This document shows, one piece after another, positions 29,096 to 63,272 of a stretch of DNA of 64,000 nt. Below the pieces are notes generated by a model. That model was not told the origin of the DNA. It saw nothing but the letters and a program-made list of their open reading frames with translations, and ran no database searches. Location of the stretch: NCBI GenBank assembly GCA_038087875.1, contig CM075987.1, positions 25,794,001 to 25,858,000 of the forward strand, in the 5' to 3' direction. A program made the translations under genes and the position numbers. Position 1 is the first letter of the stretch. The number at the start of each line of letters is the position of its first letter. The stretch is from Malacoraja senta. Taxonomy: Eukaryota.

Positions 29096-29330
29096 AGGTA
29101 GACAAAAATGCGGGAGAAACTCAGCGGGTGAGGCAGCATCTATGGAGCGAAGGAACTAGGCAACGTTTTGGGCCGAAACACTTCTTCAGACTGTTGCTCA
29201 GTCTGAAGAAGGGTTTCGACCCGAATCATTTCCTATTTCCTTCGCTCCATAGATGCTGCCTCACCCGCTGAGTTTCTCCAGCATTTTTGTCTACCTTCGA
29301 TTTTCCAGCATCTGCAGTTCCTTCTTGAAC
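29096..29330. mobile_element. Penelope-derived palindromic element (subfamily B) with 13-bp TSD
   Basis: AGGTTCTTAGCTT at 29083-29095 and 29331-29343; inverted arms plus tail. Confidence 0.9.
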
Positions 29331-43855: not shown

Positions 43856-44194
43856 AATTTCCTGTTTGGAAGTGAAATGGTATAAATTCATCTTTAATTG
43901 CTTGCATTTAATGGATGCTTTAGCCATGGCTGCATGTTATACTCCCTTCCTCATTTAATTTCGGATGATAATATCCTCATCATATTGTGCAGTTCTGTTC
44001 TTTCCCATTTGTTCATTGATAGATCCCAAGGGGGAGGAAAAAAATCATTCCAACCTGAAATCTTTCTCTACGATCATTTTAGACATATTATTAAGCATTA
44101 ACATATGATTATGGGCAAAGTCCAATCTAAACCAAGTGAACACAATACCCTTGATTGCAAGCAAACCCTGGAAATGCAATACTACTTTAGTTTA

Positions 44195-44441
44195 AGGTAC
44201 ACAAAAATGCTGGAGAAACTCAGCGGGTGCAGCAGCATCTATGGAGCGAAGGAAATAGGCAACGTTTCGGACCGAAACCCTTCCGGGTTTCGGACCGAAA
44301 CGTTGCCTATTTCCTTCAGGGTTTCGGCCCGAAACGTTGCCTATTTCCTTCGCTCCATAGATGCTGCTGCACCCGCTGAGTTTCTCCAGCACTTTTGTGT
44401 ACCTTCGATTTTCCAGCATCTGCAGTTCCTTCTTAAACACA
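44195..44441. mobile_element. Young 247-bp PLE-derived palindromic element ('flip' isomer)
   Basis: ~76-bp inverted arms with 1 mismatch; TSD ACTTTAGTTTA (44184-44194, 44442-44452). Confidence 0.92.
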
Positions 44442-44452
44442 ACTTTAGTTTA

Positions 44453-45204
44453 GTTTAGTTTCATTTAGTTTAGAGATAAGAGTGCAGAAACAGGGCCTTT
44501 GGTTTCCGAGTCCGCGCCGACCAGCGAATCCCGCACACTAACACTATCCTACACACACCAGGGACAATTTACAATTTCACCGAAGGCAATTGACCTACAA
44601 ACCTGCACGTCTTTGGAGTGTGGGAGGAAACCGGAGCACCCGGGGAAAATGCACGCAGGTCACGGGGAGAACGTACAAACTCCGTACAGACAGCACCCAG
44701 GATTGAAGCCGGGTCTCCGGTGCTGTCAGGCAGCAACTCTGCCGCTGCCCCACCTTGCCGCCCTATACCCTGCTGGATTCCAGTCAGAAGCGGCAGGTAG
44801 TGCCGCTGCCTCACAGCTCCAAACCCCCCCCCCCCCCTTGTTTGATCATGACTTCTGTTGGTCTCTGTGAGAAATATGTACATTCTACTCTTGACCGGGC
44901 CACACAGTGGCACTCACCGGTAGAGTTGCTGCCTTACAGCGCCAGAGATCGCCGGGTCCGATCCTGACTACGGGTGCCGCCTGTACAGAGTTTGCACGTT
45001 CTCCCCGTGACCACGTGGGTTTTCTCCGGGCGCTCATTAAGGTTTCGTGCCACATTAAGGACGTGCAGGTTTGTGCGTTAATTGCCTTCTGTAAATTGCC
45101 CCTACTGTCTTGGATGGAATTGATATACGGGATGATTGTTGGTCCACATGGACTCGGTGGGCCAAAGGGCCTGTCTTCATGCTGTATCTCCAATCTAAAC
45201 TAAA
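44453..45204. mobile_element. Two head-to-head V-SINEs (to 44763 minus; 44900-45204 plus)
   Basis: V domains and tails. Confidence 0.85.
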
Positions 45205-45700
45205 CATAGCGTTGTCAAAATAATTGTGGAGGAAGGATTCCCAAAGGGAAAAGACCGATGTTGTTGTTATTCATCTGTAGATAATAAACGTCAACAATGG
45301 AGATTTATTTTGACTTAAAGGAGCCTTGTTGTGGCATCATCCTGATTACTTCCATTAGTCCCCGAGGCTATAAGGCGCAAGAATCTACGCTTTGATCCAT
45401 TCCCTATTTTTACGTCTACCGTTGCACTAGCCGATAATTCTCATGAGCCTCCACCACCGGATGTGTCAAGATATTCTGAGAAGGATCGCAACCCAAAACG
45501 TCAGCTATTCCTTTTTCTCCAGAGATGCTGCCTGCCCCACTGAGTTACTCCAGTGTTTTTGTGTCCAACTATTGTATACCAGCATCTGCAGTTCCTTCCT
45601 ACAGGTAGAGGCTAGCTCAGAACCACTCTCTAGTTATTGGTAGGATGGTTTAGTTGCCTGATAACAGCTGGGAAGAAACTGTCTCTGAATCTGGAGGCCT

Positions 45701-46373
45701 GGTTTAGTTTAGAGATACAGCGTTGGAAACAGGTCCTTCGGCCCACCGAGTCCGTGCCGACCAGTGATGCCCGCACATTTACACTATCTTACACACACTA
45801 GGGACAGTTTACATTTATACCAAGCCAATTAACCTGGCGGGAGCCCTGGTTGAAATTTATGAGTGGTCCTTAAATACAGGAGAGGTGCCGGAAGACTGGA
45901 GGGTGGCAAATGTTGTACCTCTTTTCAAAAATGACTGCAAGGAAAATGCTGGGAACTATAGGCCAGTGAGCTTAACATCTGCAGTTGGTAAGTTACTGGA
46001 GTGTATTCTGACTGATACGATATACAGGCATGTGGATGGGCAAGGGCTGATTAGGGATAGTCAGCATGGTTTTGTACATGGGAGGTCATGTCTCACAATT
46101 CTGATTGATTTTTTTGAAGGCCAAATAGGTTGATGAGGGCGGAGCTGTAGATGTACATGGACTTCTTCAGTAAGGCGTTCGACAAGATTCCGCATGGTAG
46201 GCTTCTCTGGAAGGTTAGATCGCATGGGATCCAAGGAGAGATAGCTGAATGGATAGCAAATTGGCACCATGGAAGGAAGCAAACTCCGTACAGACACCAC
46301 CCATAGTCAGGATTGAACCCACGTCTTTGGCGCTGGAAGGCAGCAACTCTACCGCTGCTCCACTGTGCCACCC
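45701..46373 (-). mobile_element. HE1-like V-SINE with its middle replaced by a CR1 RT fragment
   Basis: Tail 45701-45834, head 46281-46373. Confidence 0.8.
45836..46270 (+). pseudogene. Internal CR1 reverse-transcriptase fragment
   Basis: GEVPEDWRVANVVPLFK..NYRPVSLTS..QHGF..GRSCLT; after frameshifts FSKAFDKIPH. Confidence 0.9.
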
Positions 46374-47201
46374 TTTCTTCAGTCTGTCATCGTGACAATG
46401 TCATTGTGACAGTGTGACGTCACCTCACTCCCTCCACAGATGCTGCCTGACCCATTGAGTTCCTCCAGCATTTCCTGTTTTGCTCCTTGTAGTACTGTTC
46501 AGCTGAGAGAGATAGCTCTTAGCTAAGTGAAATGGAATGACAAAAGAGGATCGGTGTTTCTCTTACGTGATCCGTGTTGTGAACCTGTTTCCCAAAGAAC
46601 TATTAAGGCACCAATGCACAGCATCATGCCGCCTTGAGAATAAAGCGTTCAAATGAAGACGCAATGGGACAAAAGGAAATAGAAGGATATGAGCGAATTG
46701 CTTAATCCTACCTTAGATGGCCAAATGGTACAGGTAATTGTTATCTGACAACAGGGGGATTTACAGCGATTGAAATGCTGTTACCTCAGCAACATCAATG
46801 TCAAATCAACTCAACTCAACATTATAAAGTACGGGCCTGGCAGCTAGAAGTACAATGTGTGATATTGGTGCGGAGAAAATAGAATCATCACACAATGCAA
46901 TTTCAACAGAGGAAATTAGATTAGGTGGATAATGAGGCAAAACTCTATTAAAGTTAATTTCTAGAGGGTGTTATTACCTTGCTAAAAGTGTTGTCACTGT
47001 CTCATCGCCTTAGAGCAAAGTAGTCTTATAATAACTCCACATTTCTTTCAGCAGCTAAATTCCGAACCACGCTAAACTTTGCAAATTGGAAGCTAGTGTC
47101 AAAAATAAATATAGAATCGAAAAGTGGAAGTGATTTAAACAAAACAAAAGAGCTATCTCCTCAGAAATTTAGGGCACAGATAAAAACCATTAGGACCATT
47201 A

Positions 47202-47514
47202 GGCGCAGCGGTAGAGTTGCTGCCTTGCAGAGCCAGAGACCTGAGTTCGACCTGACTGCGGGTGCTGTCTGTACGGAGTTTGCACGTAACTCCCGTGACC
47301 TGCGTGGGTTTTCCCGGGGCGCTCCGGTTTCCTCCCACACTCCAAAGACGTGCAGATTTGCAGGTTAATTGACTTCAGTAAAATAGTAAATTGTCCATAG
47401 TGTGTGTAGGATAGTGCTAGTGTATGGGGCGATCACTGGTAGGCGCGGACTTGGTGGGCATTTGGGTCTGTTTCCGTGCTGTATCTCTAATGTCTAAAGT
47501 CTAAAGACTAAAGT
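47202..47514 (+). mobile_element. HE1-like V-SINE
   Basis: B box, V domain, (CTAAAGT)n-like tail. Confidence 0.88.
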
Positions 47515-47874
47515 CGGGCAGCATCTCTAGAGAACATGGATAGGTGACGTTTCCGTTTGAAGAAGGGACTCGACCCGAAACATCAATCCATGTTCTCCAG
47601 AGATGCTGCCTGATCCGCTGTGTTGCACCGATATCACGTGTCTTTTTGTGTATTAACCAGCGCCTGCAGTTCCTTGTTTCTACAGAAACTAAGGATTGCC
47701 TTGTTTGGTTTTAACTGCTAAACAAAATCAAATTTGCTTTCTTCAGTCTCCTGCAGAAATGAAAGTATTTGCCTAATTGTTCCTTCCCTTGTTTCAATCC
47801 CTTTTAATTGGGCAAATGTCGCTAAATTTGTGGCACGGATTTGGCAGGCTATCAGAATAATCTATAATCTCATA

Positions 47875-48235
47875 AAGTCACAAGGTCATAAATGATAGAA
47901 GTAGAATTAGGCCATTCAGCCCATCGTCTACTCCGCCATTCAATCATGGCTGATCTATCTCTCCCTCTCAACCCCATTCTGCTGCCTTCTCCCCATAACC
48001 CCTGACACCCGTACTAATCAAGAATCTATCAATCTCCATCTTAAAAATATCCACTGACTTGGCCTCCACAGCCTTCCATGGCAAAGAATTCCACAGATTC
48101 ACCATCATCTGACTAAAGAAATTCCTTCTCATCTTCCTAAAGGAACGTCCTTGAATTCTCAGGCGGTGACCTCTGGTCCTAGACTCTACCACTAGTTGGA
48201 ACGTCCGCTCCACATCCACTCTATCCAGGCCTTTC
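47875..48235 (-). mobile_element. CR1-like 3' fragment
   Basis: ESRTRGHRLRI..FFSQMMVNLWNSLP. Confidence 0.87.
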
Positions 48236-48652
48236 TCTATCTCCTTTTATATTAGTTCCTCCTTCATGCTAAATTTAATCCTGTGAATAAACATTGCCTT
48301 GTACGTAATTCCCAAGGGCCAACTGCTTGTCAGTAGGTGGCATAACTTGCACTTAAATGAAGGAAAGTCTTGATGCAATTTATTATGCAAAATTCCCTAC
48401 CTTCTCTCTTGATCTATCAGTGAGTGAAACTGGAAAGCTCGCAGCCACATTCAACATAAGGAGGTAATTGCTTTTGCTTCTGTCTTATAAATTTCGCCCT
48501 CTGAGCATCATGAAGCAGAGGTGAAGCAAGATACAAGAGAAAGGGATTAACAACACAAACCTCTGCATAAATCAACATGGAACACAATTGTAGATGTAGG
48601 TTATGAATTATACTCTCTTTCACACCAATCAGTTGCCCTTGCAGTTCTTCAA

Positions 48653-48976
48653 GTTTAGTTTATTTTAGTTTAGTTTAGAGATACAGCGCGGATACAGGCC
48701 CTTCGGCCCATCGGGTCTGCACTGACCAGCGATCCCCACACATTGACATTCTCCTACAGATTCTAGGGACAATTTACAATTTTACTGAAACCAATTAACC
48801 TACAAACCTGTACGTCTTTGTAGAGTGTGGGAGGAAACCGAAGATCTTGGAGAAAACCCACGCAGGTCACGGGGAGAACGTGGAAACTCAGTACAGACAG
48901 CACCCGTAGTCAGGATCGAACCCAGGTCTCTGGTGCTGTAAGGCAGTAGCTTTACTGTTGTGCCACCGTGCCGCCT
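48653..48976 (-). mobile_element. HE1-like V-SINE
   Basis: Full length. Confidence 0.9.
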
Positions 48977-49066
48977 AATTCACACTAGTAAGAGAAATAG
49001 ATTTGAAATAATTTTAAAATTTCGCACTTACTGTTCATTCACATTTTTTCTTTAACGGGGATACCA

Positions 49067-49400
49067 GGATGGGACGTCGAATGACGAGAAGCCGAAGTGG
49101 AAGCCGAAGTGGAAGCCAAGATACCGAACGGAAACGACGGTGAAAAGCCGTTCGGGTTCGTATCCTTTAGGCGTCGTGTCCATTCGGTTATTTGGCTTTT
49201 AGGCGTCGTGTCCATTCGGTTATTTGGCTTTTAGGCATCGTGTCCATTCGGTTATTTGGCTTTTAGGCATCGTGTCCATTCGGTTATTTGGCTTTTAGGC
49301 ATCGTGTCCATTTGGTTATTTGGCTTTTCGGCGTCGTTTTCGTTCGGTATCTTAGCTTCCACTTCTTCTCTTCGGCTTCTTGTCCTTCGACGTCGCGTCC
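49067..49400. mobile_element. Foldback-like non-autonomous element with modular inverted ends
   Basis: ~85-bp imperfect inverted ends (GGA.G.GACGTCGAA.GAC.AGAAGCCGAAG..AAGATACCGAACG.AAACGACG); no TSD resolved. Confidence 0.65.
49169..49328. repeat. 32-bp tandem repeat, 5 copies
   Basis: AGGC(G/A)TCGTGTCCATTCGGTTATTTGGCTTTT. Confidence 0.95.
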
Positions 49401-49981
49401 ACACACGGTTTATTAAGGGTAATCAACAAAATTAGCTTCAGGGTCATACAGCACGGAAACAGGCCCCTCGGCCCAACTTGCCATGCTGACCAAAATGCCT
49501 CATCTTCACTAGTCCCAACTGACTAAGTAAGGCCCATATCCTTCTAAGCCCTTCCTGTCCGTGTACCTGCCCAAATGCCTTTTAAATATTATTAAAAGAT
49601 GTCACGTTGGCGCGGCAGAAGAGTTGCTTCCTTACAGCACCAGAAACCAGTAACAGCATTTCAATCGCAGACTAGATGAGCCAAAGGGTCTATATCCATG
49701 CTGTATCTCTAAACAAAACTAAATTTGCCTCTCTGTAACCGAGCCCAAAGCAAAGGAATAAAGGTGACCTTTCATCAGTAATTAGTACGTGGCTATCAAC
49801 GAGATGATTCTATTTGCATGACAATTGAATCATCCACAATAATTAAAACCGTTGCATAAAGCTATTTTGAAAGATCGTGTAATTATTCCAAATTATAATT
49901 TGAATGCTAAAGCACCTGAGATTTAGGACGTAATCAAAATGATGACCCTTTATCCATGATGAGATAACATTATTTCTACTT

Positions 49982-50188
49982 TGTAGGAAGGAACTGCAGA
50001 TGCTGGTTTCAACCGACGATAGACACAAAATGCTGGAGTAACTCGGCGGGACAGACAGCATCTCTGGAGAGAAGGGATGGGTGATGTTTTGGATCGAGAG
50101 GCTGAAGGGTCTCAACCCGAAACATCACCCATTTCTTCTATCCAGAGATGCTGTCTGTTCCTGCTGAGTTACTCCAGCATTTTGTGTC
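49982..50188. mobile_element. Penelope-derived palindromic element (subfamily A)
   Basis: Tail plus inverted arms. Confidence 0.8.
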
Positions 50189-50247
50189 ACTATTTCTAAT
50201 TTTATGTATTTGAGATGCCCCATTTATCGATGTGTCAAATGTCCTCT

Positions 50248-50677
50248 CTGTGGATTGTCACCTTGTCGTGGTGGAGAAGCTTGTGTGGACCTGAGATCCT
50301 GAGAGCGATGCTGTCTGGAGCTCTGCTCCTGGTAGGGCCACCTATGGTGGTGAGGTCGAGGGGGAGGTCTCTGACAAAGAGCAATCCGACCAAGGCCTCA
50401 ACGGTGGAACAGGCGGAAGACGATGGCTGACCTTAGTGGAGCGTCACAACGGCTGGGAAGGCGGATGAAGGCTGCAGCAGAAAAGGGTCCCCGGTTGTCT
50501 TGGACTCCATGCCACTGGATCCTGACCCAGATCTGTCAAGGACCGTGGGGTGGCTGTCTGTGCACCAGTCTCCCCACGTTAAACAAAGTCACGCACAGGC
50601 GTCCTCCATATAGGGAATAGCACCCTGGAGACACACATGGTCAGCCACGACCGAAGGGGGGCTAAGAAAAGAAGAAG
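50248..50677 (+). mobile_element. Non-autonomous RTE (Expander/BovB-type 5' end) derivative
   Basis: GGATTGTCACCTTGTCGTGGTGG..TAGGGCCACCTA..GACAAAGAGCAATCC head; (AAG)n tail; TSD TGTCCTCT (50240-50247, 50678-50685). Confidence 0.8.
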
Positions 50678-50851
50678 TGTCCTCTGCCCCCACCCCAATC
50701 CTATTCATAGGTTCCATATTAGGTTTTAACAGTTACTATTTCATCTAAGGCATCCTAAGATTTGAAAAACAACAATTTGTGAAACAAGCTGTAAAATTTG
50801 TTTCACTACTTGTATTTAGCGTTGACTTGAAATCTAAATGCAAGTATATGT

Positions 50852-51160
50852 CATGGTGGCACAGCGGTAGAGTTGCTGCCTTACAGCACTTACAGAGTCC
50901 CGAGGGTTCGATCCTCACTGCGGGTGCTTGTCTGTACGGAGATTGTACGTTCCACCCGTGACGTACGTGGGTTTTCTCCAAGAACTTCGGTTTCCTCCCA
51001 CACTCCAAAGACATACAGATCTGGAGGCTTAGTGTCAATATAAAAGAATGCCACTAGTGTAGGATAGGGTTGGTGGGAGGGGATCACTGGTCGGTGCGGA
51101 CTCGGTGGGCTGAAGTGTCTGTTTCTGCGCTGTATCTCCAAAACGAACAAAAAAACTAAA
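50852..51160 (+). mobile_element. HE1-like V-SINE
   Basis: Full length. Confidence 0.88.
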
Positions 51161-51394
51161 CATGGGAATTGTATTAAAGCTTCTCTGCGGTGGTTCCATT
51201 TTGGGATGATTGACATCTCAGTCTTGACGGAAGCTCGGGTAAGTACGTAACTTTTTTTCCATGGTGGGTGAGTTTTAAGAGGGACCTTTAAACCAGCATC
51301 TGCAGTTCCTTCCCACACATTCAAATCTCTACTTTGCCAGGCTGAGTTTTGCGTTGTTCTCCTCGGTAAACATTGGTGGATTCTTGAGTAATGA

Positions 51395-51866
51395 TGGCAA
51401 GCCACTCCCTTTCCTGCTGGACATATACAGGAAGAGATGTATCAGCAGAGCCATCTCCATCATCAAAGACCCCTACCACCCATCCCATCACATATTCTCC
51501 ATCCTGCCATCTGGGAAGAGGTACCGGAGCATTAGGTGCAAAACCAGCAGGATGCTCCTCAGCTTCTTCCCGCAGGGTATAAGACTGATAAACGGACTTT
51601 GTCCCCTGCCAAAGTAACCTGCACCAACCACCAACCTGGACACACTGCAGCAGAGCCACTGTCGTGCCGCTGCCGATCGGAACGCCTGTTGATGTTTAGT
51701 AGAGTAGAGTGTTAATTTGTTCATGATATATATATTTTTACTTCTATTTATTTTTTACTGCACACACTGAAATGGACACTGGTTGAGGAACGTTTTTTTG
51801 TTTCCTCTGGGTATGCGAATACTCAGGAAATAACAATAAAGATATACAATACAATACAATACAATA
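51395..51866 (+). mobile_element. Rex1/Babar LINE 3' fragment
   Basis: IYRKRCISRAISIIKDPYHPSH..LPSGKRYRS..SFFPQGIRLIN; (TACAA)n tail. Confidence 0.9.
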
Positions 51867-53071
51867 AGCATTGCACAGTCTAAAGCTGCATCTTTAGAAT
51901 TATGCAAGCATGAAAATGCAATAACTAAAACCGTGCCTGTAACAAAACACAAAAGGAAATATTTCTGAAGTACTCAAACCCCTCTCAACTCTTACCAGGC
52001 AACAGCGGGGAGGAACAGCAGGACATCCCGAAGTGATTACTCTCATTGCAAATGCCATTCTTAACACATGCCGTCCGGGGCCAAACCACATTAACTGTGA
52101 CACAGTCCATCAGTCAAACGGGAAATTCCTAATAGGTTATGTAAGCACGGCACTGGGAAACTTAGTCTGCCCGACCTGCCAGTCTCCGCATCCTCGACTG
52201 GCAAGTTCAAGTTCACTGAATCCAACTCGAGATTACTGACGTGTGCTTAATGTGATTCAATGCAGATTCAAAATTGAAGATAGTTGATATTGACTTCACC
52301 AACCCAAGAAGGAGCTTTCATTCTTGATGGCAAAATAAGAGAAGAGAATCCCTTCTCGCATTTAATCCTTCACATTTCAGTGTTCAAAAGTTCATATGTG
52401 ATAGGATCAGAGTTAGGCCATTCGGCCCATCAAGTCTACTCCGCCATACACTCATGGCCGATCTATCTCTCACTCTCAACCACATTCTCCAAACACTGTT
52501 GTTTTATGGCCAAGAACAATACTTTATGAGCTATTTGAGTGAAACAGAAATGGGGCAAAATAATGCACATCTTACATCTTAGTATTGGCATTGGTTTATT
52601 ATTGTTATGTGTACCGAGATACAGTGAAAGACTTCTACGTCTTTGGAGTGTGGGAGGAAACTGGAGCTCCTAGAGAAAACCCACGCAGGTCACATACTAA
52701 CTCCATACAGACAGCACCCGTAGTCAGGATCGAACCCGGGTCTCTGGTACTGTGAGGCAGCAACTCTACCGCTGCTCCACTGTGCCACCCTACATATACC
52801 GGATACCATACATGAGTACATTCATACTTTATACGCAAAAGAAAAAGGAAATAGGATACAGAAAGTAGTGCAGCTATGGAGAAAGTGCAGATTTAAAAAT
52901 AAATCCTTTTTCCAATGACAAAATTGCAAATAAATTCATTTTAAATAGAATTAGAAGGGTGTAGATTCCTTTCTATACAGGGAGAATAAAATGAACCATA
53001 CTGTGGTGGCGCCTCCTTCTTTGATGTCATGCTGATCCCCGTTTATGCAGGCTGGCCTGAGCAGCTGAAGA

Positions 53072-53262
53072 CCAGCACCATGGACAGTGCCTGGCTGCAG
53101 AGACATCCAGCACCATGGACAGTGCCTGGCTGCAGAGACATCCAGCACCATGGACAGTGCCTGGCTGCAGAGACATCCAGCACCATGGACAGTGCCTGGC
53201 TGCAGAGACATTCAGCACCATGGACAGTGCCTGGCTGCAGAGACATCCAGCACCATGGACAG
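53072..53262. repeat. 35-bp minisatellite, about 5.5 copies
   Basis: CCAGCACCATGGACAGTGCCTGGCTGCAGAGACAT at 53072, 53107, 53142, 53177, 53212, partial at 53247. Confidence 0.97.
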
Positions 53263-53315
53263 CAGTCTGTACAGAGCTGGGCCCACAGCCAGAGGAGCAA
53301 CAACTGTGTCCTATT

Positions 53316-54091
<776 letters not shown>

Positions 54092-54329
54092 CAGATCTGC
54101 AATGAACATGTACAATGGCAGGGAAGATTTATAATTACTTTATATTACAGCTCATACAAATAAAGCCACTTTATACTGATTATAATTCCCGAGCCTAGCA
54201 GCTAATAGAGAACCAACAACAAAACCATGAACAAAAATCTCAAGCTCAAGAAGTGAAACATTTCAGGATGTCAGTATCAATGTTTGCGGTTTGCCTTTAG
54301 TTACATTTTTGAAGACAATAGCAGGAGAC

Positions 54330-54541
54330 GGACACAAAATGCTGGAGTAACTCAGCGGGACGGGCAGCATCTCTGGAGAGAGAAGGAGCGGGTGACATTT
54401 TGGGTCGAGACCCTTCTTCAGACCCGACCCCGAAACGTCACCCATTCCTTCCTTCTCTCCAGAGATGCTGCCTGTCCCGCTGAGTTACTCCAGCACTTTG
54501 TGTCTACCTTTGGTTTAAACCAGCATCTGCAGTTCCTTCCT
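54330..54541. mobile_element. Penelope-derived palindromic element (subfamily A)
   Basis: Inverted arms plus tail. Confidence 0.82.
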
Positions 54542-54979
54542 CGACAGTAAAAGCCGAGCGGAATTACCAGGATTGTAAGAGAGAAATAACTGGAGGAACT
54601 TCAGATTCCAGCATCTGCAACCTCTTGCATCTCCAGGTTGTCAATACTGTATATTTACCTTTCAATTATACTTTATTTATCAAGAAATAAAAGTATTTTC
54701 AGAAAGAATCAGAAATGAACCTACAGTTGATTGAAGCAGATGGTGACAGGAGCAGAAGAGATATATTGTTTTGCAATTTGTTTATGATACAACCCATTTC
54801 TGTCTGGGATCATAAAACACCATATTGTGCATGGACATCTGAGCCTGCAAGAGAATTTGACACGACTTGGATTGAAATTTGGATATTGGAATTGAGGGAA
54901 TGTAAGAGAAAAAGTGTTTTTTTGATTTTCTTACACTGCTGAAAAACATGTCTATCGTGAATCTGATATGTCAGTAAAC

Positions 54980-55287
54980 TATAGAATCACAGAGACAGAC
55001 AGCGTGGTAATGGGCCCTTCGGCCCAACTTGCCCACACTGACCAACATGTCCCATCTACACTAGTCCCACCTGCCTGCATTTGTTCCACATCCCTCTAAA
55101 CTTGTCCTATCCACGTACCTGTCTGATTGTTTCTTAAATGTTGTGATAGTCCCAGCCTCAACTACCTCCTCTGGTACAGTAGCTCGTTCCATGCACCCAC
55201 CACCCTCTGTGTGAAAAAGTTACCCCTCAGATTCCTATTAAATCTTTTCCCCTTCACCTTAAACCTATGTCCTCTGGTCCTCGATTC
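54980..55287 (-). mobile_element. CR1-like 3' fragment
   Basis: Matches 16815-17150. Confidence 0.87.
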
Positions 55288-55451
55288 TTCTCTCTTTAGA
55301 CCAAGTTACGGCAGTGGGCAAGAATGTCACTAGTTTCTCCACTAGTTTCACAAATTGATGGTTCCGAAGGGTCTCGACCCGAAATGTCACCTATCCATGT
55401 TTTCCAGAGATGCTGCCTAACCCGCTGAGTTACACCAGCACTTTAATTCAT

Positions 55452-56607
55452 TAGACTGGTCTTTGTGGACTTCTCTAGCGCCTTTAACACCGTGCAACCT
55501 CACATGATGGGACGAAAACTGCTCCAGATGGATGTCAACCCGCACCTGGTCCTCTGGATGCTCTCATTCTTGACAGATGGACACCAGAGGGTTCGAGTCA
55601 ACGGTCACCTCAGTTCATCCAAGAGCCCCACAAGGCCCTGTAATCTCACTGGTTCTGTACACACTATACACAAACGACTGCAGGAGCACTAACCCAGGTA
55701 TAACATACATTAAATACTCTGATGACACTGTGATCATGGACACCACCAACTCTCAGGGACAGCTACAGTCTGAGATGGACATTTTTGCAGAGTGGAACTG
55801 CCTTGACCTCAATACCTCCAAAACAAAGCAGTTGGTTGTTGACTTCCGTAAAGGTCCTTCCATCACCCCCACTCTGTTAGTCAACAACCAGCCAATAGAA
55901 AGGATCGAGTCATACAGACACCTTGGGACAATAATTGATCACAAACTCACCTTCCAACTAAACAGTGAAACTATATTTTCTAAGTGTCAGCAGCGCCTCT
56001 TTTTCCTGAGGAAACTCCGCAGACCAGTCAGTCCTGACAGCTTTTTACAAATGTTTCATTGAGTCAGTAATAACCTCCAATATGTCAGCCTGGCTTGGGT
56101 CACTATCCAACATCCATCGCAACCCACTAAACAAAATCATATCAATGAGCAATAAAATAATCGGACTGGAGCAGGAACCACTGATCAGTATTTACAATAG
56201 AAGGACTAAACTAAAAGGAACACAAATAGCCTCAGACACCACTCACCCACTGCACAACCAATACAGTCTTCTACCCTCAGGCCAGAGAAACAGGTCACTC
56301 ACATTCAGGACTAAGAGAGCCATGTTGAGCTTCATGCCTACATCCGTTAGACTCATGAATAGTTGATCTCTTTATTTATTCATTTATTTATATATACATT
56401 TTTAACATTCTTTTAATGTTTTTATTGCCTATTCTTCATGTATTGTGCTTTGCAAGTTTTACCTACTGTCCACTGTTGGACTGCTGGCGTGTGATGTGTG
56501 CTGGTATATTGTGTTGTGCTGCTGGGCATGTCAACTGTACACGCGCTGATGTTCTGCACAAACAAAGTTCCTAACGGATAAATAACGTTCATTGAAATTG
56601 AAATTGA
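55452..56607 (+). mobile_element. Rex1/Babar LINE, ~1.15 kb with frameshifted RT
   Basis: FVDFSSAFNTVQPH, APQG.V.S..LYTLYTNDC, KYSDDT, CQQRLFFLRKLR, HPLH..LLPSG; (ATTGAA)n tail. Confidence 0.93.
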
Positions 56608-56683
56608 TATGTTCTTCTTTGTGAACCAGCATCTAGAGTTCCATCTTCCAAGCTCTTACCTCCTGGACTTTGTTCTGCCTCTA

Positions 56684-57146
56684 CAGCAGCTGCACTGTTG
56701 CGGACAGGAAGGGACTACAACGGGTGGTGAAAACCGCGCAGCACATCATCGGTGCCCCGCTCCCTGCCGTGGATGCCCTCCACCGAAAACGGTGTCTGAA
56801 ACGGGCTGGGAAGATCATTAAAGACCCCTCCCACCCCAACCATGGACTGTTTGCCCTCCTCCCATCAGGGAGACGGTACAGGAGCCTCAGGTCTCGTACC
56901 AGTAGGATGAGGAACAATGAGCTTCTCAATTATACCGTCGCATTGCTGAGCTCGGAGTCCGGCCGATAGATTCCTCCGGTCCCTCCGTCCCCATTGTTAA
57001 TTATTCTGTATTTTTGATTATTCTGTATCCTCTTTTTTTTTAAATTTCTATATTGCACTACTACTACGGACTGACGCAAAACTGCATTTCGTTGTACCCA
57101 TACTCAGTATTTGTGCAATGACATTAAAGTTGAATTGAATTGAATA
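56684..57146 (+). mobile_element. Rex1/Babar LINE 3' fragment
   Basis: SCTVADRKGLQRVVKTAQHIIG..DPSHPNHGLFALLPSGRRYRS; (TTGAA)n tail. Confidence 0.9.
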
Positions 57147-57859
57147 CTCTCTTCCAACTCTCCTCCCCACAAACAAACAGTCTGAAGAAGGATCTCGACC
57201 CAAAACGTCACCCATTCCTTCTCTCCAGAGACGCTGCCTGACCCGCAGAATTACTCCAGCTTTTTGTGTCTAACTTCGGTTTAAACCAGCATCTGCAGTT
57301 CCTTCCTACTCATCATGTTCCCCAGAGATGCTGCCTAAGCTGCTGAGTTACTCCAACACTCTACGCCTTTTCGTTTGTCAATAAAGACTGCCGTTTCAAA
57401 ATCACTTTAGATTTTCTGTTTTTCGGAAAGTGGTAGCTGGAGATTGGAAATGATAGCAGAAGCTTATGTCTATCAATTTGCACCTATAGGAAAACAAAGC
57501 CACATGTGCAGATGAAGTGGTTCCATAAGGAAGTTGATCGTCCCATTGCCTTATGTTCTATCAACACTAAGTGGGCAGAGTTCAAGCGATAAGCACAATC
57601 AACACACAGTTACAAACTGTCAACACACATATAAGGGAACCGCAGAGATGTCTCCACAATCCTCTGTTCAATATGCATGATTGTTTAAATATTTTATCTC
57701 GCCAATCTACAGACATGCCGTATTTGACTCTAAATGGTTTCTACTTACAACTGAATGCCGACACTATTATATTCTGCCCCGTGAAGAAGAATAAATCTAT
57801 GGAGATTTTCAATGTCTCAGATAATCTGTGCAATTTTCCATGTTGGGGAATTACGTTGT

Positions 57860-58490
57860 CAATAGACAATAGACAATGGACAATGGGTGCAGGAGCAGGC
57901 CATTCGGCCCTTCGAGCCAGCACCGCCATTCAATGTGATCATGGCTGATCATCCCCAATCAGTACCCCGTTCCTGCCTTCCCCCCATATCCCCTGACTCC
58001 GCTATCTTTAAGAGCCCGATCTAGCTCTCTTGAAAGTATCCAGAGAACCTGCCTCCACCACCCTCTGAGGCAGAGAATTCCACAGACTCACAACTCTCTG
58101 TGTGAAGAAGTGTTTCTTCATCTCCGTTCTAAATGGCTTAAGGGCCTGTCCCACGAGCATGTGACTGCATGCGGCAAGCGCGACGTAACGTGGTCGCTTG
58201 AGCCGTACGGCCTCGCGGGGCCGGTCCCACTTTGATCGCCGGAGTCGCATGCTCGTGGGACAGGCCCTTTACCCCTTATTCTTAAACTGTGGCCCCTGGT
58301 TCTGTACTCCCCCAACATCGGGAACATGTTTCCTGCCTCTAGTGTGTCCAAACCCTTAATAACCTTAGGTAGACAAAAGTGCTGGAGAAACTCAGCAGGT
58401 GCAGCAGCATCTATGGAGCGAAGGAAATAGGCAACGTTTCAGGCCTTATATGTTCCAGTAAGATCCCCTCTCATCCTTCTAAATTCCAGA
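57860..58490 (-). mobile_element. CR1/HER1-like 3' fragment with nested MITE and PLE arm (about 58367-58445)
   Basis: DTLEAGNMFPMLGE.RTRGHSLRIRGK|MITE|PFRTEMKKHFF. Confidence 0.9.
58141..58268. mobile_element. 128-bp Harbinger-type MITE
   Basis: TIR AGGGCCTGTCCCACGAGCATG; TTA TSD (58138-58140, 58269-58271). Confidence 0.93.
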
Positions 58491-58913
58491 GTATGGTATG
58501 TTGTAGTCTTAATCAAAATGTCCACAGAACTCAGAGCATGTTTCCACTCATGGGAGAGTCCAGGACTAGAGTCCATTGCCTCAGAATAAAAGGAGGTACC
58601 TTCAGAAAGTAGTCAGGATTGAACCTGGGTCTCTTGACCGGGACTTTACCGCTGCACCACCTTGCGGCCCCCAGAGTGTATGGAATAGGTGCAACAGTGG
58701 GATCACATAGAACCAGTGTGAACGGGTGATCGATGGTTGGCATGGAATAGGTGGGCCGAAGGGCCTGTTTTCTTGCTGTATCTTCCAATCAATCAAAATC
58801 CAATCACTACTATAGCAAGGACCACATCTGGTGTACACTCAATGGAATGAATCTGCAACATTTCTGACATGGAAACTCAGAGCAAATTAAGAGATAGGCA
58901 GTGAAAGAATCTT

Positions 58914-59241
58914 TTTTAGTTTAGTTTAGTTTACAGATACGGCGTGGAAACAGGCCCTTTGGCTGACCGAGTCCGTACCGACCAGCGATCCCCACGCATT
59001 AACACTATCCCACGCACACTAGGAACAATTTACACTTCTACCAAGCCAATTATCCTACAAACCTGTACGTCTTTTTGGAGTGTGGGAGGAAACAGAAGAT
59101 CTCGGAGAAAAAACACACAGGTCACGGGGAGAACGTACAAACTCCGTACAGGCAGCACCCGTAGTCGGGATCGAACCCGTGTCTCCGGCGTCACAAGCGC
59201 AGTAAGGCAGCAACTCTACCGCTGCTCCACTGCGACCACCC
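58914..59241 (-). mobile_element. HE1-like V-SINE
   Basis: Full length. Confidence 0.9.
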
Positions 59242-60132
59242 TTTGTGTCAATCTTCGGGGAGTCGTTCCCAGATGAAGATTTAGGAAACACGAGGTTTCG
59301 AATGGATTTATTTGTGTCGCTGGAACTATGGGATATAATGCACCAGATCTCAGAAGTGTGAGAGGCTCCGATGGAAATATATGATATACGAGTCATTTAA
59401 ACTGAAGAGTGAACAAAATTTAAGGCTATAAATTTAACAAAGGCAAAATGACAGAAACCCAGATAAAGAATAATGACCAGTCAACTGCAGCACCATTATT
59501 CAAGGTCATTTAAAGGAAAATTGCTCTCATAACTGGAACAGCTTTGATTATTCAGTAGCTGAATGCTATTCATGAAATATCTTTAGTCTGAAGCTTTGAC
59601 GATTATTTGTTATACCGGATAGTTTTACATTGCGATGCAGTGTGAAAATATAGATTCAGCGGGCCATTACTCACTGTCATCAGATGTACAGTGCTCGGTT
59701 TGAATATAATACTTGTTTCATGGAACTGTTTGCACAGCTGTTCTGCTCCAGTTGTTAAAACAGGCGTCCCCATTCATCACAGGTTACTGGCTGCCGGAGA
59801 TGAAAATGTTCAACCCAAATAGGATTTATACCTCTCAACTTCAACGGCGAGCGATGAAAATACAGGGAGGAAACAGCCCACTGAGTCCACGCCAACCAGC
59901 GATCCCAACACTATCCGCCATAGTCCAGTTCAGTGGAGGTTCAATTCCAACCCAATGATCTCTTTGGACTTTAAGAAACTCATCTGACGAAAGTCAAGAG
60001 TCAAGTGTGTTTTATTGCCATATGTCCCAGACAGAACAATGACATTCTTACTTGCAGCAACATAACAGAGCATGTAAACATAGTACTTTGTAAACAGTAA
60101 GGAAAGCACCCTTCTTCAGACTGATGGAGTCA

Positions 60133-60431
60133 TTTAGTTTAGTTCAGGGATACAGCGCGGAAACAGGCCCTTCAGCCCGCACGACCAGCGATCCCCGCAC
60201 ACTAACACCATGCCCCACGCTCTAGGGGTAATTCACAATTTTACCTGGCCATTTAATCTACAAAGCTGTACATTTTGTGGGATGTGGGGGGGAAATTAGG
60301 ACACTCCTACTGCAGGAAACCTACATCATCACAGGAACAACGTGCAAACTCCACAGAGACGACACCCGGGGTCAGGATGAAACCCCGGTCTCTGGCGCTG
60401 TGAGGCTGCAGCTCTACCAGCTGTGCCGCCC
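60133..60431 (-). mobile_element. V-SINE (diverged)
   Basis: Head, V domain, tail. Confidence 0.78.
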
Positions 60432-60448
60432 AATTATAGACCACGGGA

Positions 60449-60544
60449 AGGTACACAAAAATGCTGGAGAAACTCAGCGGGTGCAGCAGCATCTATGGAG
60501 CGAAGGAAATAGGTAACGTTTCGGGCCGAAACCCTTCTTCAGAC
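60449..60544 (-). mobile_element. Solo PLE arm (subfamily B) with intact hammerhead core at 60515-60542
   Basis: Minus GGT-CTGAAGA-A-GGGT TTCG GCCC-GAAA-CG-TT-ACC; flanked by AGACCACGGGAAG direct repeat. Confidence 0.85.
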
Positions 60545-60617
60545 CACGGGAAGACTTAAATGGAAGGGTTAAGTAAGGAGAAGAGAGGCAAATTATATTC
60601 TCCCCACAGTGACAAGT

Positions 60618-61000
60618 AAGTAAGTAAATAAATACGTTTATTGGCCAAGTATTCACATACAAGGAATTTGCCTAGGTGCTCCGCTCACAAGTAACAACAT
60701 GACATACAGTGACAGTTACGAATGACTCAGAAAACACTAAACATTAATAATAATAAAACATTAATGATAAAACACCATTGATCAAGCAAGTGAACTAACA
60801 AAATACCAGATCAAAGGGAGGCTACAGATTCTTGGCTGTTGAGTAGAGCAACTACTCGTGGATAAAAACTGTTTTTAATGTCTGGCTGTGGCAGCTTTGA
60901 CAGTCCGGAGTCGCCTTCCAGAGGGAAGTGATTCAAAGAGTTTGTGTCCAGGGTGAGAGGGGTCAGAGACGATCTTGCCTGCTCGCTTCCTGGCCATGCT
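60618..61000 (-). mobile_element. Rex1/Babar LINE 3' fragment
   Basis: RKRAGKIVSDPSHPGHKLFESLPSGRRLR; (TTAC)n-like tail. Confidence 0.88.
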
Positions 61001-61526
61001 GGCTTTCAACGTCACATCCACACCACGGTTTTCGGAAATTGTACTTGATTTTCCTAACGACCGTGGCAACAAGCAACGAGCACAGGACAAGCAATGGCAT
61101 GATTTCAGCTCGGTCAATAGCCGAATGAAATGCAAAATGCTCCGTTTAATTTAACATCGCTAAATTATCAACTGTAGCACTTATTTGTTCCATGAAATTG
61201 ATTCACCGCACTAATCATTGGATGAATAGACAGCAGCTCCCTCACCAATTAAACTGAATATTAGATTTAGTGATGGAAAATATTCTGTTTAATCCAATTA
61301 ACTGCTCAGCTGAAAAACCAAACGTAGCGATCGGGCTAAAGCTGGGGAACGCGGCAAGTTGCACTTCCAAAAGTGAATTAAAAATGTATTTGACACTGCA
61401 CTGTAAAGAGTGTTTAGTTTCAAAGGCCACTGCATTCCAGAAATACATTACAAATGTATAATACCAAAATGTTTTTGGCTATGGCCAACTGATATTGAAG
61501 CGACAATGATAGTCATGGAAAAAGAA

Positions 61527-61975
61527 CATTTGTTGCGTGCTATCCAGTCAGCGGAAAGACAATACATGATTACAACCGTCCACAATGTACAGATACAGGA
61601 TAAGGGGAATAATGTTTAGTGCAAGATAAAGTCCAGTAAAGTCCAATTAAAGATAGTCTGAGGGTCTCCAATGAGGTAGATAGTAGCCCAGGACTGCTGT
61701 CGAGTTGTTGATAGGATGGTTCAGTTTCCTGATAGCAGCTGGGAAGAAACTGTCCCTGAGTCTGGATATGTGTTTTCACACTTCTATATCTCTTGCCTGA
61801 TGGGAGATGGGAGAAGAAGGAGTGATCCTTAGTGTAGTGTGAAGTGTAGATGGAGTCAATGGGAGGGAGGTTGGTTTGCGTGGTGGTCTGGGCTGCGTCC
61901 GCAATTCTCTACAAATTATTTCGGCCTTGGGTGAAGCTGTTGCCAAACCATTGCTGTGATGTAATCTAATAACAT
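61527..61975 (-). mobile_element. Rex1/Babar LINE 3' fragment (degraded)
   Basis: Matches 33359-33627 and the UTR at 16530-16782. Confidence 0.82.
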
Positions 61976-62229
61976 CATCCAAATGTTAGAATTTTGAATA
62001 GGTTTGTCTCATAACAGGTACCATTTAATTACGTGTGGGGGGAATTAACCAGCACGGCAGAACGTTTTACTTGACCTTTTCAATGTAAGACATCTTAAGA
62101 AGCAATAATTTGTGAAAAGTTCTCAAAGAATTCAAAGTTGCTGTTAATTCACCCAGAATTTAAGAATACATCAAAATAACCTCCTTCAGAGTGTTATGCA
62201 GGCACAGTTTGATTGATTGAAAGAAACAG

Positions 62230-62539
62230 GATGGAAACAGGCCCTTCAGCCCACCAAGTCTATACTGACCTGCAGATCACATGTTCGCACTGGTTCTATG
62301 TTATCCCATTGTTGCATCCATTGCCTATATCTATCTATCATGGGCAATTTCCAGAGGCCAATCGACCTGCAAACCCTCACGCCTTTGGGATGTGGGAAGA
62401 GACCGGAGCAACCAGAAGAAACCCAAGCAATCACAGTGAGAATGTGCAAACTCCACACAGACAGCAGCCGAGGTCAGAATTGAACCCCTGTCTCTGTCGC
62501 TGTGAGACAACAGCTCTACCAGTTGCATCATTGTGCCGC
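62230..62539 (-). mobile_element. V-SINE (older variant)
   Basis: Head, V domain, tail. Confidence 0.78.
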
Positions 62540-62645
62540 TATAAATTTATTGTTTCCTTCCGAGAGACCATTGGCTCCTTGTTGATGTGCCGACCAGTGG
62601 GAAATACTTTTATTCCAGAGGCTCTTGTATATAGGAAGGAACTAC

Positions 62646-62892
62646 AGGTACACAAAAATGCTGGAGAAACTCAGCGGGTGCAGCAGCATCTATGGAGCGA
62701 AGGAAATAGGCAACGTTTCGGGCCGAAACCCTGAAGGAAATAGGCAACGTTTCGGTCCGAAACCCGGAAGGGTTTCGGTCCGAAACGTTGCCTATTTCCT
62801 TCGCTCCATAGATGCTGCTGCGCCCGCTGAGTTTCTCCAGCATTTTTGTGTACCTTCGATTTTCCAGCATCTGCAGTTCCTTCTTTAACACA
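62646..62892. mobile_element. Young 247-bp PLE-derived palindromic element ('flop' isomer)
   Basis: Same arms and tail as 44195-44441 with the spacer inverted; TSD AGGAACTAC (62637-62645, 62893-62901); inserted in the tail of a subfamily A copy that runs to about 63161. Confidence 0.92.
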
Positions 62893-63272
62893 AGGAACTA
62901 CAGGTGCTGGTTTAAACCGAAGATAGACACAAAATGCTGGAGTAACTCAGCGGGACAGGCAGCATCTCCGGAGAGAAGGAATAGGTGATGTATCAGGTCG
63001 AGACCCTTCTTCAGACCTTGGAGAGAGGAGGAGAACCTCTTCAGTTGGAGAGAACATCTAAAGCGTCTGAAGAAGGGTCTTGACCTGAAACTGTCACCCA
63101 TTCCTTCTGTCCAGAGATGCTGCCTTTCCTGCTGAGTTACGCCAGCATTTTGCGTCTATCTCAGCTCTTGTATATACATGCACTCGCAGAAATGCAGGCA
63201 CAACCGCACAGCAACAAACTATGTGGACCCACTTGGGACCCGCTTGGCCCACGCTCAATACCGTTTGCAAGT

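What the first reader, a model, noticed from the sequence alone, without database searches (positions are those of the whole stretch)
44195..62892. Two young 247-bp Penelope-derived palindromes are exact flip/flop isomers
Seen: 44195-44441 and 62646-62892 have the same length, the same AGGTACACAAAAATG start and the same single ~37-nt tail on the right. Each has its own TSD (ACTTTAGTTTA; AGGAACTAC), so they are independent insertions. The asymmetric spacer between the arms of one copy is the exact reverse complement of the other (..CGGACCGAAACCCTTCCGGGTTTCGGACCGAAACGTTGCCTATTTCCTTCAGGGTTTCGGCCCG..). They carry three GAAACGTT hammerhead half-motifs but no CTGAAGA catalytic box. Established: PLEs form inverted pseudo-LTRs with a short tail, and flip/flop isomers are typical of hairpin-mediated replication such as parvovirus ITRs. 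Inference: this MITE-like retroposon may propagate through a hairpin or either-strand intermediate and may no longer need its own ribozyme.
Basis: partly seen in the sequence, partly recalled or inferred. Interest (0 to 1): 0.8.

Follow-up and report, generated by a model that had tools for sequence, protein, structure and literature searches.

The report
Flip-flop palindromes from a Penelope retrotransposon
Two 247-base hairpin-shaped insertions are short, ribozyme-less offshoots of a very abundant Penelope-like retrotransposon, and their mirror-image centres most likely show that this kind of element can attach its short "tail" to either end when it inserts.

Summary
Both copies are 247 nt, and the middle of one is the exact reverse complement of the other. 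They differ at only 3 other positions, and each has its own target-site duplication.

They are not a stand-alone oddity. Their arms and tail are the 3' end of a young Penelope-like element (PLE) with over 10,000 copies, whose upstream ORF carries RT-like and GIY-YIG parts. The asymmetry is one extra 34-bp unit, which other copies carry 1-7 times, always on one arm only.

Both orientations are common: 19 right-sided against 11 left-sided of 30 classifiable sampled loci. They share all arm polymorphisms and three spacer haplotypes, and do not differ in age. So they are neither two separate lineages nor a rare accident.

A flip is equivalent to putting the tail on the other end. Published work says PLE tails occur at either end, that the PLE protein extends both target strands, and that reverse transcription starts at two sites bracketing the tail.

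My best reading (0.55) is that the orientation is re-drawn at insertion. Inversion in place after insertion is not excluded, because no read-level check was possible. A parvovirus-like hairpin mechanism is not needed.

It is a new variant of a known kind.

The parts
44184..44194 (+). Left target-site duplication of copy A (ACTTTAGTTTA)
   Evidence: repeated at 44442-44452
44195..44270 (+). Copy A left arm (76 nt). It is the reverse complement of the right arm and ends exactly where the tail would begin.
   Evidence: 20-mer U at 44251-44270
44271..44328 (+). Copy A asymmetric centre: a small hairpin (9-bp stems, TTCC loop), then one extra 34-bp unit joined by TTCA. The unit lies on the tail side ('right-sided', form A).
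44329..44404 (+). Copy A right arm. It is the 3' part of the PLE pseudo-LTR, downstream of the hammerhead cleavage-site region.
44405..44441 (+). Copy A 37-nt tail, present at this end only
   Evidence: 0 of 50 unit-bearing copies have a tail at both ends
44442..44452 (+). Right target-site duplication of copy A
62637..62645 (+). Left target-site duplication of copy B (AGGAACTAC)
62646..62721 (+). Copy B left arm
62722..62779 (+). Copy B asymmetric centre, the exact reverse complement of A's. The extra 34-bp unit lies on the arm away from the tail ('left-sided', form B), and the loop reads GGAA.
62780..62855 (+). Copy B right arm
62856..62892 (+). Copy B 37-nt tail
62893..62901 (+). Right target-site duplication of copy B. 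It lies inside the inverted tail of an older, related PLE 3' end that continues to about 63010.
1011..1143 (-). Solo 5'-truncated copy of the same young family, with a tail and with the CTGAAGA box
29096..29330 (+). Palindromic copy of the same family with a different centre (CTGAAGA boxes on both strands), one tail, and target-site duplication GGTTCTTAGCTT
60449..60543 (-). Solo copy without a tail, flanked by target-site duplication CCACGGGA. It ends exactly at the arm/tail boundary.

Best explanation
Both copies are insertions of a short, non-autonomous, palindromic derivative of a very abundant young Penelope-like element (PLE). The derivative consists of the last ~76 nt of the PLE pseudo-LTR, an inverted copy of that stretch, and the 37-nt PLE tail on one end only.

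The centre is a small hairpin plus a variable number (1-7 seen) of a 34-bp unit. The unit is derived from the helix-II / GAAAC / cleavage-site part of the PLE's minimal hammerhead. The catalytic CUGANGA box is gone.

The palindrome with its asymmetric centre is copied as one unit by the PLE machinery acting in trans. 'Flip' against 'flop' is simply which end receives the tail.

Inferred mechanism: the PLE protein primes cDNA on both cut target strands. One cDNA starts at the tail-inclusive site and the other at the tail-less site. Because the template is a palindrome, the two cDNAs can pair through the arms, and either one can become the strand that runs through the centre. The orientation of the centre relative to the tail is therefore re-drawn at insertion.

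Shown here: the anatomy, the PLE parentage, that insertions are independent, that both forms are common and intermixed, and the one-tail and one-sided-unit rules.

Inferred: that flipping happens during retrotransposition, and by two-strand priming.
For: Anatomy and exact flip.

Parent family:
- The shared right arm plus tail start (92-mer, up to 3 mismatches) has 10,549 genome hits; the control pattern has 0.
- In L121-L150 the arm is preceded by CTGAAGA-A-GGGTTTCGGCCC-GAAAC-GTT, and many copies are 5'-truncated with their own target-site duplications.
- In L140 the upstream ORFs are RT-like and GIY-YIG. Pfam PF01541 gives E 3.5e-4 at 21.2 bits, below the 22.6 cut-off. The best Atlas hits score 0.98 to clusters carrying GIY-YIG.

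The unit is inherited rather than made afresh each time:
- Palindromes with CTGAAGA centres all have different turn-round points: 8 of 8 (L124, L128, L129, L132, L134, L138, L149, L150).
- Unit-bearing copies share the same small hairpin and the same TTCA junction. The 44-mer across the junction has 1,259 hits at up to 1 mismatch.
- The tail-linked A pattern has 123 hits.
- The tail-linked B pattern has 37 hits.

Flipping is recurrent:
- 19 right-sided against 11 left-sided copies among the 30 loci the script could classify, out of 46 loci sampled through an orientation-neutral 44-mer. Binomial p is 0.20.
- In 31 complete one-unit copies (15 A, 16 B) no arm or tail site is diagnostic, and nearest neighbours are no more often of the same form than in shuffles.
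- Three spacer haplotypes occur in both forms: 5A/3B, 5A/2B and 2A/1B.
- There is no age difference between forms (Mann-Whitney p 0.26), and both forms are among the least diverged copies.

Rules expected from 'one tailed end, one tail-less end':
- 0 of 50 unit-bearing copies have a tail at both ends, and 0 of 55 have units on both arms.
- The left arm ends exactly at the arm/tail boundary, as does the tail-less solo copy at 60449-60543.

Control against flipping in place: a composite repeat carries the same core between ~44-bp inverted arms. It keeps one orientation relative to its flanks in 75 of 77 copies by script, and the 2 flagged copies have the same orientation on inspection.

Literature:
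- PMC11167929 (abstract, passages and part 1 of section 3): a purified PLE protein cleaves and extends both strands. Reverse transcription starts at two internal sites, and the tail is the stretch between them.
Against: - No transposition event was observed. The timing of the flip is inferred from population patterns in one assembly.
- The control family is younger (0.8% against 3.7% from its consensus) and has shorter, less perfect arms. Its 0 of 77 flips argues only moderately against flipping in place.
- Some palindromic copies have 5'-truncated left arms (L129, L149). These fit a single cDNA copying a palindromic RNA rather than two-ended priming, so more than one route exists.
- The 4-nt loop of the small hairpin flips independently of the unit side (form B with a TTCC loop: L120, L151, L170; form A with a GGAA loop: L182). 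Whole-palindrome reversal alone does not explain this.
- The 19:11 ratio comes from 46 loci on two contigs. The other loci in the haplotype tests were chosen by similarity to copy A, so sampling is not uniform.
- The biochemical support comes from one lizard PLE tested in vitro.
- GIY-YIG falls just below Pfam's cut-off, and Rfam finds no hammerhead even at E up to 1. The ribozyme motif in the parent was read by eye.
Confidence: 0.55

Rival explanations
1. Flipping in place after insertion. The long perfect hairpin or cruciform provokes template switching at replication, or recombination between the 76-bp arms. This inverts the centre at individual loci or at a few master loci, as happens with small hairpin-loop inversions in chloroplast DNA (recalled, not looked up).
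For: - The arms are near-perfect hairpins.
- The 4-nt loop of the small hairpin is found flipped independently of the unit side. One such copy is in the composite family, which otherwise never flips (L077). This looks like local hairpin-mediated switching.
- Intermixing of forms on arm haplotypes is equally expected from frequent flipping in place.
Against: - 0 of 77 spacer flips in the composite family that carries the same core. If the 247-nt family had reached its mix by flipping in place at a constant rate, about 12% flips would be expected over the composite family's age; the probability of 0 of 77 is about 3e-5. The caveat is shorter arms.
- The proportion of forms shows no trend with copy age.
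- 76-bp arms are short for homologous recombination in animals (established knowledge).
Confidence: 0.2
2. Two stable lineages. One ancient inversion produced form B, and each form then copies itself faithfully. The shared arm variants come from recombination or template switching with other family members, or from recurrent mutation.
For: Arm haplotypes are heavily shuffled in the whole family. All four combinations of two sites 9 nt apart are seen, so exchange in the arms is frequent.
Against: - Three spacer haplotypes, one of them defined by two changes, are present in both orientations. Exchange in the arms cannot move these without moving the orientation too.
- There are no diagnostic SNPs, and distances between forms equal distances within forms (AA 11.7, BB 9.9, AB 10.8).
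Confidence: 0.12
3. Each palindrome is made afresh from a linear, unit-bearing PLE 3' end. Two converging cDNAs join at a strongly preferred microhomology, so forms A and B are convergent products rather than copies of palindromic templates.
For: - Linear 5'-truncated copies exist with a CTGAAGAA remnant followed by an extra unit (L178, L181).
- CTGAAGA-type palindromes clearly arise anew with varied centres.
Against: - The same small hairpin and loop recur in most unit-bearing copies.
- Non-mirrored variants at the arm-spacer joints are shared by several copies in both forms.
- No copy has units on both arms (0 of 55), although two cDNAs entering the same array should often produce that.
Confidence: 0.08
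4. Parvovirus-like hairpin-primed DNA replication, or an assembly artefact.
For: Only the formal flip/flop relation.
Against: - The 247-nt element has no coding capacity.
- Its parent is a reverse-transcribing element with target-site duplications, 5' truncation and a one-sided tail.
- Both forms occur at dozens of distinct loci, each with its own target-site duplication. A local mis-assembly does not explain that.
Confidence: 0.05

Closest known systems
Complex inverted PLE insertions with a one-sided 'tail' (Evgen'ev & Arkhipova 2005 and Arkhipova 2006 as cited in PMC8557442; Frangieh et al. 2024, PMC11167929)
   Same: - An inverted copy next to the 3' end, 5' truncation, and a 30-40 bp tail at only one end that can be either end.
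- Both target strands are cleaved and extended.
- Two reverse-transcription start sites bracket the tail.
   Different: - Here the inverted structure has shrunk to a 247-nt unit that is itself copied many times.
- It has an asymmetric, inherited centre that makes the tail side readable as flip or flop.
- No paper I could search describes this. One search (Penelope-like / flip / palindrom) listed nothing relevant among its 12 listed rows, and one search found no such passage in the 2026 retrozyme preprint.
Animal non-LTR retrozymes, non-autonomous PLE derivatives (PMC7229834, seen as a listing only; bioRxiv 10.64898/2026.07.22.740005, abstract and term search seen)
   Same: - Short non-coding derivatives of the PLE pseudo-LTR region.
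- Presumably mobilised in trans by PLEs.
   Different: - Retrozymes are head-to-tail tandem units with active hammerheads and circular RNAs.
- These copies are dispersed single palindromes with target-site duplications and no CUGANGA box.
Parvovirus / AAV terminal-repeat flip and flop (established knowledge, recalled)
   Same: Two forms in which the asymmetric inner part between inverted arms is reverse-complemented.
   Different: - Those arise by hairpin-primed DNA synthesis and Rep nicking at the ends of a linear ssDNA genome.
- Here the element is a chromosomal retroposon insertion, and the flip equals a change of which end bears the tail.
Hairpin-associated small inversions in organelle DNA and quasi-palindrome template switching (established knowledge, recalled)
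   Same: A loop or spacer between short inverted repeats inverts recurrently.
   Different: - That process acts in place on one locus.
- Here the control family with the same core shows 0 of 77 spacer flips.
MITEs
   Same: Short, non-coding, hairpin-forming and dispersed.
   Different: - MITEs are cut-and-paste DNA elements with symmetric ends and a target-site duplication of fixed length.
- Here the duplications are 9-14 bp and variable, one end has a 37-nt tail, and the ends are those of a retroelement.

Membership tests
Penelope-like element (derivative of) | Parent copies encode a reverse transcriptase followed by a C-terminal GIY-YIG endonuclease | tested here: met
   - L140 has a 252-aa open frame with an RT-like ..YNDD.. 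stretch, then a 230-aa frame with ..IYIGET..R..EH...
- Pfam GIY-YIG scores E 3.5e-4 at 21.2 bits, just under the 22.6 cut-off. The RT fragment gets no Pfam hit.
- The best Atlas hits score 0.98 to GIY-YIG-bearing eukaryotic clusters.
- There are no PDB relatives.
Penelope-like element (derivative of) | Minimal hammerhead motif in the pseudo-LTR | tested here: inconclusive
   - The parent 3' ends read CTGAAGA-A-GGGTTTCGGCCC-GAAAC-GTT. This fits the min-HHR description in PMC4209133 (passages).
- Rfam gives no hammerhead hit at the gathering threshold in the window, nor at E up to 1 on L126, L133, L025 and L149.
- Activity was not tested.
Penelope-like element (derivative of) | [quoted passage not shown] | tested here: met
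   - A 37-nt tail at one end of both copies.
- 0 of 50 copies have a tail at both ends.
- A tail-less solo copy with a target-site duplication lies at 60449-60543.
Penelope-like element (derivative of) | Frequent 5' truncation, an adjacent inverted copy, and target-site duplications | tested here: met
Non-LTR retrozyme | Head-to-tail tandem units, each with a complete hammerhead (CUGANGA box) | tested here: not met
   Neither copy has CTGANGA on either strand. Both are single dispersed palindromes.
Non-LTR retrozyme | Circular RNA intermediates | not testable with these tools
Parvovirus-type flip/flop hairpin termini | The asymmetric inner part is reverse-complemented between two otherwise identical forms | tested here: met
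Parvovirus-type flip/flop hairpin termini | Hairpins at the ends of a linear ssDNA replicon, resolved by a Rep nickase | tested here: not met
   The element is a 247-nt chromosomal insertion with a target-site duplication and no ORF. Its parent encodes RT and GIY-YIG.
MITE | Symmetric terminal inverted repeats reaching both ends, and a target-site duplication of fixed length | tested here: not met
   One end carries a 37-nt non-repeated tail. Duplications range over about 9-14 bp.

The most novel reading that the evidence does not exclude
This palindromic PLE derivative, which lacks a ribozyme box, has its tail side re-drawn at every retrotransposition. If so, the family is a natural in-vivo reporter. 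It would show that PLE integration primes cDNA on both target strands, that either cDNA can become the full-length strand, and that hammerhead catalysis in cis is dispensable for mobilisation in trans.
Probability: 0.45. Interest if true: 0.6.

Novelty: new variant of a known kind. Interest (0 to 1): 0.45.

Why it matters
How PLEs integrate is still poorly understood. PMC8557442 (passages read) says their 'complex tandem/inverted' insertions and one-sided tails come from still-undefined features of the transposition cycle.

A high-copy family whose inherited centre is asymmetric turns 'which end got the tail' into a countable character. A full census, or a comparison between individuals, could test in vivo the two-strand priming seen so far only in vitro.

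The family also shows that copies lacking the catalytic box of the hammerhead were still templated many times. In addition, a ribozyme-derived 34-bp unit behaves as an expandable module, forming arrays with at least 11 matches at 34-bp spacing in one array.

Tried and rejected
I replaced them with plain contiguous patterns.
- The 23-mer across the unit junction (2,626 hits) was a poor probe. 77 of the 90 fetched loci matched a different, composite repeat by the script. I reused that repeat as a control.
- Whole-genome pattern counts for A against B are not comparable in scope:
  - 123 hits for A with one or more units, 115-mer.
  - 39 hits with copy B's own 115-mer, which carries two private changes and would also hit unit-less palindromes.
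  - 17 hits for A with exactly one unit, 145-mer.
  - 37 hits for B with one or more units, 145-mer.
  I therefore take the ratio from fetched loci only.
- An apparent run of + strand matches on contig C3 is an effect of how the truncated list is ordered. One search shows - strand copies in the same region. It is not a finding.
- Rfam found no family at the gathering threshold in the window. At E up to 1 it gave only sub-threshold microRNA-precursor matches to the long hairpins, which I regard as generic hairpin hits.
- PDB sequence search found nothing.
- The look-up of sequencing runs listed no RNA holder.
No read-level check of either locus or of allelic orientation was made.
- Earlier-findings look-ups returned nothing.
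I then fetched short regions, as the message allowed.

Full report
**Observation**

Window 44195-44441 (copy A) and 62646-62892 (copy B) are both 247 nt. Each consists of a 76-nt left arm, a 58-nt asymmetric centre, a 76-nt right arm that is the reverse complement of the left arm, and a 37-nt tail that is not repeated.

Positions 40-170 of A equal the reverse complement of the same positions of B exactly. Outside the asymmetric part the copies differ at 3 positions.

A is flanked by an 11-bp direct repeat and B by a 9-bp one, and the flanks are unrelated. Neither copy contains CTGANGA on either strand. Each has three copies of the 20-mer that carries the GAAACGTT half-motif. As RNA they fold at -177.9 and -185.5 kcal/mol, with z scores of -24 and -27.

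**Anatomy of the asymmetry**

Call the 20-mer next to the centre U. Then:
- A reads: left arm ending in U, a small hairpin (9-bp stems, loop TTCC), U', a TTCA junction, a second 9-bp half-stem, U', and the rest of the right arm.
- B reads: U, half-stem, TGAA, U, the small hairpin with loop GGAA, U'.

The asymmetry is therefore one extra 34-bp unit. It lies on the tail-side arm in A and on the other arm in B. Because the arms are mutual reverse complements, B is formally the palindrome of A turned over with the tail attached to the other end.

**What the arms and tail belong to**

The right arm plus the start of the tail (92 nt, up to 3 mismatches) occurs 10,549 times in the 1.94-Gb assembly; the control pattern occurs 0 times.

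In 30 fetched loci the arm is normally preceded by CTGAAGA-A-GGGTTTCGGCCC-GAAAC-GTT. Copies are cut off at many different 5' points, each with its own target-site duplication.

Several longer copies share an upstream region. In L140 this region has an RT-like open frame followed by a frame with a GIY-YIG motif. Pfam scores it E 3.5e-4, just below the curated cut-off. The best Atlas hits score 0.98 to clusters carrying GIY-YIG.

This is the architecture of a Penelope-like element: RT plus C-terminal GIY-YIG, a minimal hammerhead in the pseudo-LTR, and a 30-40 bp tail. The sources are PMC8557442 (passages) and PMC4209133 (passages). Rfam does not recognise the motif, so the hammerhead in the parent is read by eye and its activity is untested.

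**Palindromes are common in this family**

Many insertions carry an inverted left arm. Those with CTGAAGA boxes in the centre each turn round at a different point: 8 of 8 (L124, L128, L129, L132, L134, L138, L149, L150). They look newly made.

The unit-bearing palindromes differ. Most share the same small hairpin and the same TTCA junction.
- A 44-mer across that junction has 1,259 hits at up to 1 mismatch, many of them in arrays with a 34-bp period.
- A tail-linked A-type 115-mer has 123 hits.
- A tail-linked B-type 145-mer has 37 hits.

Since the junction is an arbitrary derived feature, these copies were templated from elements that already had it, and those elements lack the catalytic box.

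Among 72 distinct tailed copies parsed, 55 carry extra units. Of these, 30 are right-sided (1-6 units) and 25 are left-sided (1-7 units). None has units on both arms, and 0 of 50 have a tail at both ends.

**Are flip and flop two lineages, a rare accident, or a recurrent event?**

I sampled 46 loci through the 44-mer, which is present in both forms and so is neutral to orientation (plus six loci already fetched). The script could classify 30 of them: 19 right-sided and 11 left-sided. Binomial p against 1:1 is 0.20. The other 16 lacked a tail or an arm within the short stretch fetched, or were complex.

I then compared 31 complete one-unit copies, 15 A and 16 B. I dropped four copies with truncated or nested left arms (L006, L013, L064, L100).
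- None of the 13 polymorphic sites in the arms and tail separates the forms (lowest Fisher p 0.083).
- The nearest neighbour is of the same form in 0.484 of cases, against 0.485 in shuffles.
- Mean distances are AA 11.7, BB 9.9 and AB 10.8.
- Three spacer haplotypes, written in one orientation, occur in both forms: 5A/3B, 5A/2B and 2A/1B. The last is defined by two changes and includes the two window copies.
- Divergence from the consensus does not differ between forms (p 0.26), and both forms are among the least diverged copies.

These results reject 'one orientation very rare' and 'two lineages with diagnostic SNPs'. One caveat applies: the loci come from several differently chosen samples, some picked by similarity to copy A.

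**When does the flip happen?**

I could not observe this directly, but one internal control bears on it. A different, composite repeat carries the same core (small hairpin plus one unit) between inverted arms of about 44 bp, embedded in arrays of a 66-bp unit. Its spacer has the same orientation relative to its flanks in 75 of 77 copies by script, and the 2 flagged copies are also the same on inspection.

That family is younger: 0.8% against 3.7% from its consensus. Suppose the 247-nt family had reached its mix by flipping in place at a constant rate. Then about 12% flips would be expected in the control, and 0 of 77 has a probability of about 3e-5. Shorter arms may lower the in-place rate, so this is supportive, not decisive.

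**Mechanism proposed**

The published record supplies the pieces.
- PLE insertions often have an inverted 5'-truncated copy next to them, and a tail 'at either end', often at only one end (PMC8557442).
- A purified PLE protein cleaves and extends both target strands. It starts reverse transcription at two internal sites, and the tail is the stretch between them (PMC11167929).

Apply this to a palindromic template. One target strand primes a cDNA that includes the tail, and the other primes a tail-less cDNA. This matches two observations: the left arm ends exactly at the arm/tail boundary, and the window's tail-less solo copy at 60449-60543 ends at the same boundary.

Each cDNA is itself palindromic, so the two can pair through the arms.
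- If the tailed cDNA runs through the centre, the parental orientation results.
- If the tail-less one does, the centre is reversed relative to the tail.

This accounts for the exact flip, the single tail, the one-sided units and the intermixing of forms.

It does not by itself explain three things:
- the independent flips of the 4-nt loop (L120, L151, L170, L182, and L077 in the control);
- the copies with truncated left arms (L129, L149);
- the changes in unit number.

**Comparison and novelty**

The closest known thing is the ordinary complex PLE insertion with a one-sided tail. This is a compact, high-copy, ribozyme-box-less version whose asymmetric centre makes the tail side visible.

Animal retrozymes are the known non-autonomous PLE derivatives, but they are tandem and carry hammerheads (listing). 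The parvovirus analogy holds only for the form of the isomers.

My searches found no description of flip/flop PLE palindromes. They cover open-access papers and bioRxiv only. I rate the finding a new variant of a known kind, of moderate interest.

**Limits**

- The analysis rests on one assembly.
- The sample is about 70 parsed copies out of thousands.
- No reads could be laid.
- No RNA data were available.
- The supplements of the cited papers were not opened.

Noticed in passing
L031-L120 (for example L055 at 330-470); genome-wide: The 23-mer across the unit junction occurs 2,626 times. In 77 of the 90 sampled places it belongs to a composite repeat. That repeat is a ~140-nt core of the A form captured between tandem arrays of a 66-bp unit derived from an older PLE arm. 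It is very young (0.8% from its consensus) and always has the same core orientation.
   Followed up: partly
G000 C3:89146663-89147045; also L087, L183, L189, L190: The 34-bp unit (hammerhead helix II, GAAAC, the cleavage-site region, and 14 nt) forms tandem arrays. One array gave 11 junction matches at 34-bp spacing in the list, and up to 7 extra units were seen in parsed tailed copies. Arrays are always on one arm only.
   Followed up: partly
window 62893-63010; L145 and L148: Copy B is inserted inside the inverted tail of an older PLE 3' end. At least two other copies of the young family also sit in tail sequence of other copies. This fits the reported need of the tail sequence for endonuclease recognition (PMC11167929).
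   Followed up: no
window 60449-60543, 58367-58445 and 1011-1143: These are solo 5'-truncated copies of the same family. Two lack the tail and end exactly at the arm/tail boundary; one of those has target-site duplication CCACGGGA. The third has the tail. This matches two alternative reverse-transcription start sites.
   Followed up: partly
L120, L151, L170, L182; L077: The 4-nt loop of the small hairpin (TTCC or GGAA) is found flipped independently of which arm carries the units. This happened once even in the composite family, which otherwise never flips.
   Followed up: no
L158 and L159 (G000 C3:4086989 and C3:4090563): These two copies, 3.6 kb apart, are identical across the compared stretch (element plus short flanks) and have the same orientation. 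This is probably a local duplication rather than two insertions (one search merged them as duplicates).
   Followed up: no
L025, L133 and L149: At a permissive threshold the long hairpins score as various microRNA-precursor families. All scores are far below the gathering scores (for example 87.8 against 230 bits). I regard these as generic hairpin matches.
   Followed up: no
window 43000-52999: About a quarter of the sampled 31-mers of this stretch are held by runs labelled as eight other coded organisms, while two runs of one organism hold 0.48-0.59. This could reflect shared repeats or close relatives. Nothing was laid.
   Followed up: no
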